45,223 bases of DNA from a virus. Location of the stretch: the UHGV virus genome UHGV-0196721, one strand, 5' to 3'. This document shows positions 39,001 through 42,000 of the stretch, piece after piece (the first letter of the stretch is position 1; every line of letters begins with the position of its first letter). A program made the position numbers.

Positions 39001-42000
39001 CATATAAGAATGAAACCGGATATTTATTACGGAACTGTTTTAAAGACCTGCCGGGATTTCGATATTATCCTGGTGAATAACTTTATCGACCGGGTAACAG
39101 TTACCGGGAATTTTCTGTTCGGTTGCTGCAGTCATACACTCCTGCATTGTCCTGTGAACACTGACTGCAATATCAACTGGCACTCCGGAAACAAGAAAAA
39201 CTGTCAGAACAAGCGCAAATGCTGAATTCATTGTGCACATCCTTTTGGCATCAGACGTAAACGAGCCAGCATTGAAACAATGCATATTTTATTTAATAGC
39301 TCCCGTTCTTGTTTTCTCTTGTTAATGGCATCTTCAGTAAATACAGGGTTACTGATAGTGACACCAATTTCAAAACAACCTTCAGACGTATTAACGTTTG
39401 GTAATAACGTTTTCATTATCGCGCCCTCAACAATGAGTTTTGTGATGCGGTGCCTGGTGCCTCCAGGTGACGTTAACCAGTTAACAATTAACGCCGGATA
39501 CAGAGAATCCACCCATAACACTGTTTTTGGTTTTAACTGTTCCGCGTGCGCTTAGCCGCATTCACCGCATCACAAAATTCACTTTAAAAAGGGCGGCAGA
39601 GCAGTCACGGAGTAAAACTGATACCGCCAAATGTCACCAGAAAATTGATAACAGAGGGCGTTGCAGCGGGGTTGTCACTTAAGCGTATGGTCAACCTGAC
39701 AACCCGGTGTCCTCAACGGGGGAAGGAATAACCCCGCCATACTTACCGCCGCGCCATTTCGCGGATTGCCACAACCGGAAGCGCACGGTCGACGAAAATT
39801 TAACGACAGGCTATCTATGAACCAGCTACCTCGCCGTGCGCTTTCGCGTTATGGTCTGACTTTTCAGGGAAATATCCTTTCAGTAAACTGTCAGCGCCGG
39901 ATGCTCACCCGTGTCCGGCGCACGCACTCCACCTCACCCGTGGAGAACTCCTTAATTACCAACCTTAGCTTCGTTGGTTAGCTATTAACGCGGGTATGTA
40001 ATCATTCTGGCAATGCTTAATGCCGCTGCTTTTTCCAGCCTGGTGATATCCTGCTCCAGAGCGGACAGATTTTCAGCCTGCTTAGCCCTGGCTTCATTGG
40101 CCCATTTCAGATCCTGCGCTGCATTAATTTTCTGGCGCATCCACTCATAAAGTTCATCATCGGTATAGTCTGGCGCGATGATGACGGGTTCTCGTTTCTG
40201 CATACTGATTCCTCGCGGTGCTGCTTCGCTTATCAGCCGTTAGATTTTGCCGAGCTGGAAAGCGCCTGTTTAAACTCACTGAAGCTGAGAGCTTCTTCGC
40301 CTTCGGCAAGGCCTTCGAAGTATTCTTCGTAAGCCTTTTCCATGATTGTGTCGAAATCCATATCACTCACCTGAGTTTCTTTCCAGCCAGCGACGGGCAC
40401 CATTTTCGGTTTTAAACGTTTTGCTTTTGGTATACGTCATCACGGTGAACGTACCGTCCTGGTTGGGGAACACGCCACATACCAGAGATTCGTTGTTGCC
40501 AAGATCGATAGTATCCATGTTGACCTCATTTCCCCTTAACGCCGGGGTAGCGGAACAAAAACCTGCTGCATAGTTATTAAAGTTGAACCCTGCCGTCATG
40601 TTCTTACGCCTCAGGCTGGCTACTTAACCCCTGACCACTGCCTGGTAACTCGAAGTATTGCCCTGCATTCTGTGGGGTGGGGAGAGGGAATGAATGAAGT
40701 TTAGAAAAATGAACTTTTCAGGTCAATGTTTTTTATCAAAACATTTTAAGCAGGCAGCTGTTAAGCCATCACCACGATGGCATACAGTTAATCAAATAGA
40801 TGAGGTCGGTTAAATATCTTGTTGAATTTTAAAGCATACGCCCAATATGCAAGATAGATCATCCAGCATAATTGAAGGGTAGCGAGGATTCGTGGGGACT
40901 AAAAGAATATCCGGCCCTTCTATCTCCAGTTTACGAATGACAGGTGTTGTGGTCCCTTTGGGTAAGGCAAGGACAATATTTCCTGGTTGTACGGTTCGAT
41001 CGGGATCAACAAAAACTGTTGAACCATTTGGGATGGAAACTCCCCCACCAGATGTTGACATACTGTCACTCTCTAGAACAACTGCAAAGGTATTGGCCGG
41101 GATTTCTCCGACAAGCTGCACACAAGAGGTTATTGAGGAATTTTTCATATTTTAACTCTCCTCCATTAAGAAGCCAATTTTCGTTTACTTTCAATATTTT
41201 TGCCAGTGAACTTATGTAACGCGAGGACGGCGCTCCTCCACCGTTCATCCATTGACTTACGGAGCCTTTTGATGCGCCAGTGGCATTGACAAGGTCTTTG
41301 CCTTTCAGGTTTAGCGCATGCATACGTTGGGTTATGCGTTCAGATATTGTTTGCTTGCTCATGTTTTGATTTTAAAACACAGATGGTTTTGTTTCTTGAC
41401 TTTCTTTGGTTTTGATTATTAAAATTTTGGCGTTCAGTTTTATGGAGCGACTCATGAAAAAATCAGAAGTATTAGGCTATTTTGGCGGAGTTGTTAAAAC
41501 AGCCGCAGCTCTAGGAACGTCAAAAACCACAGTCAGCATGTGGGGGGAAGAGGTTCCGTGGAAATGGGCGTTGCTAATTCAGGCAGTCACTGCCGGGGCG
41601 CTCAAATATGAGTTACACATACCGACGGTTGTCATTCCCGGTTCTGATCATAATCCGCCTTCTAACCAAGGGGGGATTCATGAAAATCAAGCATGAACAC
41701 ATCCGCATGGCGATGAATGCCTGGGCGCGTCCTGATGGCGAAAAAGTTCCAGCAGCTGGAATAACCCAGGCTTATTTTGAGTTGGGTATGACGTTCCCGG
41801 AACTGTATGACGACAGCCATCCGGAAGCCCTGGCTCGCAATACCCAGAAAATTTTCCGCTGGGTAGAGAAAGACACCCCTGATGCTGTTGAAAAAATGCA
41901 GGCTCTGTTACCGGCGATCGAAAAGGCGATGCCGCCTTTGCTGGTGGCCCGTATGCGCAGCCACAGTTCTGAATATTACCGTGAGATCGTCGAACGGAGG

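What the first reader, a model, noticed from the sequence alone, without database searches (positions are those of the whole stretch)
40810..41362. CI-type immunity repressor split by a one-nucleotide homopolymer indel
The HTH domain (ORF 41066..41362) and the S24 autoprotease domain (ORF 40810..41148) are in frames one nt apart, meeting at the run at 41141..41145. Removing one base or adding two restores one repressor of about 185 aa. If real, the lysogen would express an HTH-only product that cannot autocleave, changing SOS inducibility; it could also be a sequencing error or phase-variable switch.
Basis: seen in the sequence. Interest (0 to 1): 0.55.

Follow-up and report, generated by a model that had tools for sequence, protein, structure and literature searches.

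The report
Phage repressor gene broken by deletion
The immunity repressor gene of this lambda-like E. coli phage is split in two by an 86-base deletion that removed the linker between its two domains, not by a one-base slip, so the phage has most likely lost the ability to stay dormant; this is a well-known kind of mutant.

Summary
The two minus-strand ORFs are real. 41362..41066 encodes the HTH domain (98 aa) and 41148..40810 encodes the S24 domain (112 aa), one nucleotide out of frame.

The cause is not the A5 run at 41141..41145, which is A5 in all 117 relatives checked. Against the intact 212-aa repressor, found in about 19% of complete E. coli genomes, the window lacks 86 nt (3×28+2) between 41151 and 41150. 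The lost residues 71-100 are the inter-domain linker, including the stretch that aligns with the lambda CI cleavage site.

This junction is absent from 5,426 E. coli genomes, IMG/VR, GTDB genomes and JGI metagenomes. The 98-aa product is absent from 15 billion proteins.

The window is a circularly permuted, non-integrated lambdoid genome with an attP joint, a lysis-to-terminase joint and a contiguous end-to-start joint. The best reading is therefore a cI-null (clear-plaque type) derivative of a common temperate phage, not a lysogen with altered SOS inducibility.

Two further rare changes hit inferred operators: a PR -10 change (TAAACT to TAAAAT) and a 1-nt spacing loss in an OL palindrome. They hint at a lambda-vir-like genotype, but both also occur with intact cI elsewhere. 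This is ordinary biology, so interest is low to moderate.

The parts
41153..41362 (-). Native 5' part of the repressor gene: codons 1-70, the complete Cro/C1-type HTH DNA-binding domain. It is identical to residues 1-70 of the intact 212-aa protein. There is no Shine-Dalgarno sequence before the ATG at 41362.
   Evidence: The alignment to 434 repressor 1-69 and the P22 C2 N-terminal domain covers query residues 1-69.
41150..41151 (-). Deletion junction. Intact relatives carry 86 nt between these two bases (TACAGGTGATTCGCTTGATCTATCTTTACCGCCGATAAAAACGGTTCCGCTACTATCACTTCAGCAGGCAGCAAGCTGGAGTGATT). This block encodes residues 71-100, NTGDSLDLSLPPIKTVPLLSLQQAASWSDY. There is no microhomology at the breakpoints.
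   Evidence: Alignments A1 and A4; translation of the intact gene. The junction was not found anywhere else.
41066..41152 (-). Out-of-frame tail of the HTH ORF: 28 non-native residues, KYEKFLNNLLCAACRRNPGQYLCSCSRE, then TGA.
40810..41148 (-). 3' part of the repressor gene, now a separate 112-aa ORF equal to residues 101-212 of the intact protein. It is the S24 domain, with Ser29 and Lys73 of this ORF (S129 and K173 of the intact protein) aligned to lambda CI S149 and K192. Its ATG is the internal Met101 of the intact protein. The deletion places GGAGGAGAG 7-15 nt upstream of it.
41141..41145 (-). It is not the lesion: it is A5 in every relative.
   Evidence: 117 of 117 loci have A5.
41396..41425 (+). 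Inferred PR promoter for the cro-like gene: -35 TTGACT, an 18-nt spacer, then the -10. The window has TAAAAT where relatives have TAAACT. The difference is base 41424, A on the + strand versus C.
   Evidence: Promoter scan; alignment. The exact 80-mer is in 0 of 1,033 E. coli genomes, 0 IMG/VR and 0 GTDB contigs, and in 1 metagenome contig that has an intact cI.
41409..41424 (+). Inferred operator overlapping the PR -10. It is a 16-bp GTTT-N8-AAAC site: GTTTTGATTATTAAAC in relatives (8 of 8) and GTTTTGATTATTAAAA in the window (7 of 8, the symmetric C lost).
   Evidence: Operator status is inferred from repetition, symmetry and position, not shown.
41363..41378 (+). Inferred operator abutting the cI start codon (GTTTTGATTTTAAAAC, 8 of 8), unchanged in the window.
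40727..40743 (+). Inferred OL operator palindrome abutting the -35 of the leftward promoter. In the window the arms TGTTTT and AAAACA are separated by 5 nt (A6/T6 run). In most relatives they are separated by 6 nt (A7), which is the spacing of the OR sites.
   Evidence: The exact 90-mer is in 2 of 1,028 E. coli genomes. A6 occurs in about 7 of 114 IMG/VR loci, including loci with intact cI.
40698..40726 (-). Inferred PL promoter (-35 TTGACC, 17 nt, -10 TAAACT) with a 7-of-8 operator-like site at 40699..40714 over its -10. This mirrors the PR arrangement.
41454..41696 (+). Cro-like gene (P22_Cro family), divergent from the repressor gene.
   Evidence: annotation of relatives.
35070..35150 (+). 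attP-like joint: a tRNA-like 3' fragment between the tail-fibre genes and int (35188..36213, -). Matches to integrated prophages stop at 35150.

Best explanation
The window is the excised or virion-form (circularly permuted) genome of a lambda-like temperate coliphage whose CI-type repressor gene has been inactivated by an 86-bp internal deletion.

The deletion removes the 30-residue linker that joins the HTH DNA-binding domain to the S24 dimerisation/autocleavage domain, and it shifts the frame. The only HTH-containing product is therefore residues 1-70 plus 28 nonsense residues.

By analogy with lambda CI, this resembles the RecA-cleaved, inactive N-terminal fragment. It would have no dimerisation or cooperativity domain and much weaker operator binding. 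It should therefore fail to hold the early promoters PR and PL shut.

The phage is then expected to grow lytically, as a clear-plaque (cI-minus) type, and to be unable to establish or maintain lysogeny.

Shown: the deletion, its extent, its uniqueness, and the non-integrated genome form.
Inferred: loss of repressor function and the phenotype.
For: Nature of the lesion:
- The intact gene in relatives is one 639-nt ORF of 212 aa. That exact protein is on at least 1,000 contigs.
- The immunity region is present in 1,042 of 5,426 complete E. coli genomes. All listed best hits span 868 nt against the window's 781.
- The window lacks 86 nt at 41151|41150.
- Residues 1-70 and 101-212 are identical to the intact protein.
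- The lost residues align with lambda CI's linker, including its QAG cleavage-site stretch. S129 and K173 align with lambda S149 and K192.

Uniqueness:
- The junction is absent from E. coli genomes (a 100-mer spanning the junction at E<=1e-30), IMG/VR (16), GTDB genomes (17) and JGI metagenomes (28).
- The 98-aa product is absent from about 15 billion proteins.

Genome form:
- int lies directly after the tail-fibre genes, with a tRNA-like att fragment between them.
- Matches to integrated prophages break at 35150. Only 2 of 5,426 genomes are contiguous across that point.
- The window end joined to the window start is 100% contiguous in prophages.
- Full-length terminase, portal, tape-measure, J-like and Q ORFs are present.

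Other alleles: independent linker deletions of 75 and 102 nt occur in other metagenome contigs. One is a 43.5-kb contig that is also in phage form.
Against: - No reads are available, so an assembly artefact or a minority variant cannot be excluded.
- Loss of function is inferred from lambda, 434 and LexA biology and was not measured. An isolated HTH domain can still repress if over-expressed.
- The S24 fragment may be translated separately, since an SD-like GGAGGAGAG lies upstream of its ATG. What it would do is unknown.
- The source of the sequence, and hence whether it came from virions, is unknown.
Confidence: 0.8

Rival explanations
1. Lambda-vir-like virulent mutant. Besides losing cI, the phage carries selected cis changes that make its early promoters insensitive to the repressor made by a resident homoimmune prophage. 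These are the C-to-A change at 41424, which improves the PR -10 (TAAACT to TAAAAT) and destroys the symmetric C of the operator over it, and a 1-nt loss in the spacer of the OL palindrome. The phage could then plate on the roughly 19% of E. coli that carry this immunity type. This extends the best explanation rather than excluding it.
For: - Wild type has three perfect GTTT-N8-AAAC sites and one 7-of-8 site, placed over the PR -10, the cI start, the PL -35 edge and the PL -10. The window damages two of the three perfect sites.
- The 41424 variant is in 0 of 1,033 E. coli genomes, 0 IMG/VR (58) and 0 GTDB (60).
- The OL A6 variant is in 2 of 1,028 E. coli genomes.
- The other two linker-deletion alleles also carry A6 plus a further half-site change. 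L006 has GTTTTGAT changed to GTTTTAAT in the same PR operator. L003-5 have GTTC changed to GCTC in the PL -10 operator.
Against: - The operators are inferred, not demonstrated.
- Both small variants also occur with an intact cI. A6 is seen in L010, L011, L050 and L066. The 41424 variant is seen in metagenome contig L126, which has A7. They may therefore be inherited rare polymorphisms.
- The P0020 and P0022 alleles share a sequence background, so there are at most two independent associations with A6.
- A cI-null phage needs no operator mutations to grow lytically.
Confidence: 0.3
2. One reading: a one-nucleotide indel in the A5 homopolymer, arising as a real mutation, a sequencing error or a phase-variable switch, splits an otherwise complete repressor gene.
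For: - The frames differ by one nucleotide.
- Removing one A from 41141..41145 gives a single ORF.
Against: - Relatives with the intact gene have the same A5 run (117 of 117).
- They differ from the window by an 86-nt block 5 nt upstream of the run.
- A 5-nt run is short for slippage.
- The 'repaired' ORF would lack residues 71-100 of the real protein.
Confidence: 0.02
3. Assembly or sequencing artefact: the real phage has the intact 639-nt gene and the 86-nt gap was introduced in silico, or represents a minority sub-population.
For: - The allele is found nowhere else.
- No reads are available to check it.
Against: - An 86-nt clean deletion in unique, non-repetitive sequence with no flanking repeat is not a typical error of any sequencing platform or assembler.
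- Flanking sequence is 99.7% identical to relatives with no other indels in the gene.
- Comparable real deletions of 75 and 102 nt in the same linker were assembled independently in several samples.
Confidence: 0.08
4. A functional two-part arrangement: the HTH and S24 domains are made as separate proteins, or are joined by programmed +1 frameshifting in the 83-nt overlap, as a regulated design.
For: - An SD-like GGAGGAGAG precedes the S24 ATG.
- The two ORFs overlap.
Against: - The arrangement is unique to this sequence, whereas more than 1,000 relatives encode a single polypeptide.
- The required shift is +1, there is no recognisable shift site, and nothing is conserved to support it.
- The overlap is the accidental result of the deletion.
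Confidence: 0.02

Closest known systems
Bacteriophage lambda CI repressor and its cI-minus (clear-plaque) mutants
   Same: - The intact relative aligns with full-length lambda CI over HTH, linker and S24 domain (3bdn, E 4e-10), with the Ser/Lys dyad conserved.
- The gene is divergent from a cro-like gene, with operator-like sites over both early promoters, and has a start codon without an SD sequence.
- Truncation after the DNA-binding domain gives a product like the inactive RecA-cleavage fragment (established lambda biology).
   Different: - Sequence similarity to lambda CI is low.
- The HTH domain is nearer to the 434 and P22 C2 type.
- The neighbours are P22-Cro-like and YdaT-like genes, not lambda cro and cII.
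- The position aligned with lambda Ala111-Gly112 reads Ala-Ala in the intact family.
- The lesion is an 86-bp linker deletion rather than a point mutation.
Lambda vir (operator-constitutive virulent mutants, v1 v2 v3)
   Same: Rare changes fall in inferred operators at both the rightward and the leftward early promoter, in a phage that also lacks repressor.
   Different: - Operators are only inferred here.
- Each variant also exists with intact cI in other sequences.
- Immunity-insensitivity is untested.
Intact 212-aa 'LexA family transcriptional repressor' of E. coli lambdoid prophages (P0001, e.g. AML05092.1; cI of phage vB_EcoS-640R1, URC10038.1)
   Same: Residues 1-70 and 101-212 are identical. 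The flanking DNA is 99.7% identical.
   Different: The window lacks residues 71-100 and is frameshifted.
In-frame linker-deletion alleles P0020 (187 aa) and P0022 (178 aa) from metagenome assemblies
   Same: - They delete the same linker, with right-hand breakpoints within 6 nt of the window's.
- They carry the same rare A6 OL allele.
- P0022 sits on a phage-form 43.5-kb contig.
   Different: - Their deletions are 75 and 102 nt, both in frame.
- They have 6-nt (GTGATT) and 2-nt microhomology at the breakpoints.
- They leave the HTH and S24 domains fused.

Membership tests
CI/LexA-type autocleavable repressor (HTH + peptidase S24) | N-terminal Cro/C1-type helix-turn-helix DNA-binding domain | tested here: met
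   HTH_3 at E 3e-5 on the 98-aa ORF. Residues 1-69 align with the N-terminal domains of 434 repressor and P22 C2.
CI/LexA-type autocleavable repressor (HTH + peptidase S24) | C-terminal S24 domain with a catalytic Ser/Lys dyad | tested here: met
   Peptidase_S24 at E 8e-14 on the 112-aa ORF. SDSM Ser and RKL Lys align with lambda CI S149 and K192.
CI/LexA-type autocleavable repressor (HTH + peptidase S24) | Both domains on one polypeptide, joined by a linker | tested here: not met
   In the window the two domains are in different frames, and the linker (residues 71-100) is deleted. The feature is met in the relatives.
CI/LexA-type autocleavable repressor (HTH + peptidase S24) | Ala-Gly (or Cys-Gly) scissile bond in the linker | tested here: not met
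   The region is deleted in the window. In intact relatives the position aligned to lambda QAG reads QAA, which is conserved in every homologue in A3 that retains the linker.
CI/LexA-type autocleavable repressor (HTH + peptidase S24) | RecA-stimulated self-cleavage and SOS induction | not testable with these tools
   This needs biochemistry or an induction assay.
Homopolymer slippage / phase-variable frameshift | Run length differs between in-frame and out-of-frame alleles | tested here: not met
   The run is A5 in the window and in 117 of 117 related loci. The difference from relatives is an 86-nt block.
Homopolymer slippage / phase-variable frameshift | Run long enough for frequent slippage (typically 7 nt or more) | tested here: not met
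   The run is 5 nt. The length threshold comes from general knowledge.
Programmed ribosomal frameshift | Conserved overlap with a shift-prone site in the required direction | tested here: not met
   A +1 shift would be needed. No relative has the overlap and no recognisable shift site is present.
cI-minus clear-plaque mutant of a temperate phage | Repressor ORF disrupted relative to the wild-type allele | tested here: met
cI-minus clear-plaque mutant of a temperate phage | An otherwise complete, non-integrated phage genome | tested here: met
   attP joint; circular permutation; full-length lytic-module ORFs. ORF integrity was judged only by length and Pfam hits.
cI-minus clear-plaque mutant of a temperate phage | Clear plaques and failure to lysogenise | not testable with these tools
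   Phenotype only.
Lambda-vir-type virulent mutant | Operator mutations at both OR and OL that reduce repressor binding | tested here: inconclusive
   Two rare changes fall in inferred operators. However, the operators are not validated, and both variants also occur with intact cI.
Lambda-vir-type virulent mutant | Growth on a homoimmune lysogen | not testable with these tools
   Needs a plating assay.

The most novel reading that the evidence does not exclude
The repressor linker of this very common E. coli prophage immunity type (about 19% of complete genomes) may be a recurrent target for deletion. Three independent deletions (86, 75 and 102 nt) all sit on the rare OL-spacing allele A6. Each is accompanied by a further change in an inferred operator half-site. 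Where context is visible, they are found in excised, phage-form contigs. This could mark repeated natural emergence of obligately lytic, immunity-escaping ('ex-temperate') lineages from a resident prophage family.
Probability: 0.2. Interest if true: 0.55.

Novelty: new member of a known kind. Interest (0 to 1): 0.3.

Why it matters
For annotation: this is not a candidate for phase variation, programmed frameshifting or a homopolymer sequencing error. The two ORFs should be annotated as fragments of one disrupted cI gene.

For biology: it predicts that this phage is obligately lytic even though it has a full temperate gene set, including int and attP. That matters for lifestyle prediction, where integrase-based classifiers would call it temperate, and for any practical use of the phage.

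If the accompanying operator and promoter variants are functional, the phage could also overcome the immunity of a prophage type carried by about one in five E. coli. In that case the locus would provide a ready-made set of natural operator and linker mutants for an uncharacterised CI/Cro switch.

Tried and rejected
- A 50-mer junction query against E. coli genomes gave no match. On its own this was ambiguous, because low-complexity masking could hide seeds. I repeated it with a 100-mer and an E-value cut-off that only a junction-spanning hit could pass.
- I looked for a near-identical parent prophage or phage, to date the deletion. None was found. The early region is mosaic: the best hit in phages covers 52%, the best in E. 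coli covers 97% at 93% identity or 84% at 99%, and the late region is about 90% identical to the PhiR12-type lambda-like phages.
- I searched the literature for the relative phage HannyBb and for ECOR/lambdoid virulent mutants. Nothing specific to this repressor turned up.
- I considered microhomology-mediated slippage for the window's deletion. There is none at its breakpoints, only a weak imperfect GGAG..G..T.A similarity. The 75-nt allele, by contrast, lies between two GTGATT copies.
- I considered that the OL A6 variant and the 41424 variant were private de novo mutations. This was rejected as stated, because both occur elsewhere with intact cI.
- I considered that the G4 frameshift alleles P0025 and P0026 are real homopolymer pseudogenes. 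One of the three contigs examined, L007, shows other homopolymer anomalies (a fused cro-ydaT call and A8 at OL), so sequencing error is at least as likely.
- Rfam did not give a clean tRNA call for the att fragment, only tRNA-like partial matches.
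Full report
**The observation**

On the minus strand there are two overlapping ORFs: 41362..41066 (98 aa) and 41148..40810 (112 aa). Pfam assigns HTH_3 to the first and Peptidase_S24 to the second. The start coordinates differ by 214 nt, so the frames are one nucleotide apart. An A5 run lies at 41145..41141, immediately after the ATG of the second ORF. Removing one A would fuse the frames. As a description of the sequence, the finding is correct.

**What the lesion is**

I compared the locus with related sequences.
- The 781-nt region 40700..41480 matches 1,042 of 5,426 complete E. coli genomes. In every listed best hit the match spans 868 nt in two pieces. It also matches three phage records, with spans of 867-868 nt.
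- Alignment with E. coli 52F4 and phage vB_EcoS-640R1 shows the window is collinear and 99.7% identical, except that it lacks an 86-nt block between 41151 and 41150.
- In the relatives the gene is a single 639-nt ORF of 212 aa. It is annotated 'repressor protein cI' in phage vB_EcoS-640R1, from an internal Met.
- The window's 98-aa ORF equals residues 1-70 plus 28 out-of-frame residues. The 112-aa ORF equals residues 101-212.
- Because 86 = 3×28+2, the deletion itself produces the frame offset.
- The A5 run is untouched. It is A5 in all 117 related loci that contain the site, including every other allele examined.

The one-nucleotide homopolymer indel, with its corollaries of phase variation and homopolymer sequencing error, is therefore not supported.

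**What was deleted**

A PDB sequence search aligns the intact protein with full-length lambda CI (3bdn, E 4e-10).
- The N-terminal 69 residues align with the DNA-binding domains of 434 repressor and P22 C2.
- The C-terminal part aligns with the lambda CI C-terminal domain and with UmuD'.
- The SDSM serine and RKL lysine align with lambda S149 and K192.
- The deleted residues 71-100 (NTGDSLDLSLPPIKTVPLLSLQQAASWSDY) align with the lambda linker, including the 'VQAG' cleavage-site stretch.

The deletion thus removes the tether and cleavage-site region and leaves both globular domains encoded, but in different frames.

**How unusual the allele is**

- A 33-mer across the junction is absent from IMG/VR, from one genome per GTDB species and from JGI metagenome contigs.
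- A 100-mer across the junction gives no hit in the complete E. coli genomes at E<=1e-30. Only an uninterrupted match could reach that threshold.
- The exact 98-aa product is absent from a collection of about 15 billion proteins. The intact 212-aa protein is on at least 1,000 contigs.

The allele is private to this sequence as far as can be searched.

**What kind of molecule the window is**

- Going rightward, the window runs through QueH, DUF968, the Q antiterminator, a DNA methylase, three tRNAs, a NanS-p-like esterase, lysis genes, terminase, head and tail genes and tail fibres. Then, directly, come a tyrosine integrase (35188..36213, -), a large exonuclease, the cI fragments, cro, a YdaT-like gene, replication genes, DUF1627 and DUF977.
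- Between the tail-fibre genes and int lies a tRNA-like 3' fragment, but no whole tRNA.
- In integrated prophages the match to this stretch stops at window 35150. Only 2 of 5,426 genomes are contiguous across it. This is what an attP joint should look like.
- The last 700 nt of the window joined to the first 700 nt are 100% contiguous in many prophages. The window is therefore a circular permutation of a complete genome.
- The late region is lambda-like, about 90% identical to the PhiR12-type phages.

The sequence therefore represents excised, replicating or packaged phage DNA, not a resident prophage. That changes the expected consequence. The question is not how a lysogen would respond to SOS, but whether this phage can lysogenise at all.

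**Mechanism (inferred)**

In lambda, 434 and LexA, separating the DNA-binding domain from the S24 domain abolishes dimerisation and cooperative binding and inactivates the repressor. This is how RecA-stimulated cleavage induces a prophage (established knowledge, not tested here). The window's 98-aa product is the genetic equivalent of that cleaved fragment, with a nonsense tail. I therefore expect constitutive early transcription, lytic growth and clear plaques. The S24 fragment might be translated on its own, because the deletion brings GGAGGAGAG to 7-15 nt upstream of its ATG. No function can be assigned to it.

**Additional changes in the immunity region**

Apart from the deletion, the window differs from its closest relatives at two positions.

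A promoter scan finds a rightward promoter ahead of cro: TTGACT, 18 nt, TAAAAT at 41396..41425. It finds a leftward promoter below cI: TTGACC, 17 nt, TAAACT at 40726..40698.

Wild-type sequence has three perfect 16-bp sites of the form GTTT-N8-AAAC and one 7-of-8 site. They lie over the PR -10, at the cI start, at the PL -35 edge and over the PL -10. I take these to be the operators. This is inferred from symmetry, repetition and position only.

- **Base 41424.** The first difference converts the PR -10 from TAAACT to TAAAAT and removes the symmetric C of the operator over it.
  - The exact 80-mer is in none of 1,033 E. coli genomes, none of IMG/VR and none of GTDB.
  - It does occur in one metagenome contig (L126), which has an intact cI.
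- **The OL palindrome.** The second difference shortens the spacer from 6 to 5 nt (A7 to A6).
  - The exact 90-mer is in 2 of 1,028 E. coli genomes.
  - A6 occurs in about 7 of 114 IMG/VR loci.
  - Four A6 loci have an intact cI: two of the IMG/VR loci and the two E. coli genomes.

Both are rare natural variants rather than strictly private mutations. A lambda-vir-like genotype is an attractive reading but only suggestive.

**Other alleles of the same gene**

A homologue search found two in-frame linker deletions.
- **P0020** (187 aa) lacks 75 nt between two copies of GTGATT.
- **P0022** (178 aa) lacks 102 nt, with 2-nt microhomology.
  - It occurs in three assemblies, including a 43.5-kb contig in which int again abuts the tail-fibre genes, i.e. 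phage form.
- Both alleles carry A6 at OL.
- Each has one more change in an inferred half-site. L006 has GTTTTGAT changed to GTTTTAAT in the PR operator. L003-5 have GTTC changed to GCTC in the PL -10 operator.
- The two alleles share a sequence background, so they are not fully independent.

A 175-aa frameshift allele at the G-run (window 41042..41046; G4 instead of G5) is seen on short Logan contigs. One of the three examined also has other homopolymer anomalies, so this may be sequencing error.

**Comparison with what is known**

- The gene belongs, by domain content and by alignment, to the lambda CI/LexA class of HTH+S24 repressors.
- In this window it fails the 'single polypeptide with linker and scissile bond' criteria, because it is a disrupted copy.
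- The phenomenon, a temperate phage that has lost its repressor, is textbook. The specific allele is new, and the CI/Cro switch it belongs to appears uncharacterised, but nothing here is a new kind of system.

**Verdict**

- Best explanation: an 86-bp deletion knockout of cI in a non-integrated lambdoid phage genome (confidence about 0.8).
- Interest is 0.3. It is raised slightly above routine by the recurrent linker deletions and the co-occurring operator variants.

Noticed in passing
Intact relatives: L001:3119-3757; residues 92-97 (QQAASW) of P0001: At the position that aligns with the lambda CI scissile bond Ala111-Gly112, the intact family has Ala-Ala. This is conserved in every homologue in A3 that retains the linker (84-100% identity). 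The wild-type repressor may therefore not be a canonical RecA-cleavable protein.
   Followed up: partly
L001:3119-3757, L010 and L011 (RefSeq E. coli chromosomes): RefSeq/PGAP annotates only the C-terminal 112 aa (WP_001397087.1, 'LexA family protein') of an uninterrupted 212-codon ORF. The HTH half is left unannotated. The 112-aa form is recorded on about 999 contigs.
   Followed up: partly
L003:10001-10537, L004, L005 (P0022); L006:940-1503 (P0020): There are two further, independent, in-frame deletions of the same linker: 102 nt, and 75 nt between GTGATT repeats. They occur in metagenome assemblies. One is on a 43.5-kb contig where int abuts the tail-fibre genes, i.e. phage form.
   Followed up: partly
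Window 41042-41046 (G5 run); L007-L009: Alleles with G4 at this run give a 175-aa truncated product (P0025, P0026; index lists about 70 blocks). They are seen only on short Logan contigs. One of these, L007, has other homopolymer anomalies (a fused cro-ydaT call and A8 at OL), so sequencing error is likely.
   Followed up: partly
Window 40698-40745 and 41363-41425: The rightward and leftward early promoters share one design: -10 TAAACT with a GTTT-N8-AAAC site ending inside it, plus a second perfect site further upstream. This looks like the uncharacterised operator set of this immunity type.
   Followed up: partly
L055 (IMGVR_UViG_3300029085_000005, contig 34,957 nt): This metagenome viral contig combines A6 at OL with the GCTC half-site change seen in the P0022 lineage, but on a different sequence background. 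Its cI lies outside the stored stretch, so its state is unknown.
   Followed up: no
L126 (OLJS01000143.1), first 35 nt of its reverse complement: This is the only other sequence with the 41424-type PR -10 variant. It has an intact cI and A7, and it diverges from all others just at the cro start (CATGAG reads CAAGAG, with different sequence beyond). It ends at the contig edge.
   Followed up: no
Window 2940-8373: The late regulatory region is laid out as in Stx phages: Q antiterminator, DNA methylase, tRNA-Met/Arg/Arg (5296-5545) and a DUF1737+SASA (NanS-p-like) esterase (6520-8373). No ORF of 90 aa or more (the listing threshold) lies wholly in the ~1-kb gap between the tRNAs and the esterase, which argues against an stxA-sized gene there; a gene as small as stxB was not excluded.
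   Followed up: no
Window 7-693: An epoxyqueuosine reductase QueH homologue lies in the nin-like region, contiguous with DUF977 and DUF1627 in many prophages.
   Followed up: no
Window 41149-41177 (-): The deletion junction creates a -10-like TAAAAT, 17 nt after a TTGGCT (9 of 12 match to consensus), just upstream of the S24 ORF. A transcript from it would probably start at or beyond the ATG, so it is unlikely to matter.
   Followed up: no
H97 (NZ_CP185789.1) and H98 (NZ_CM192165.1): Only these two of 5,426 E. coli genomes are contiguous across the attP-like joint (tail-fibre side to int). They may carry tandem or otherwise unusual prophage copies.
   Followed up: no
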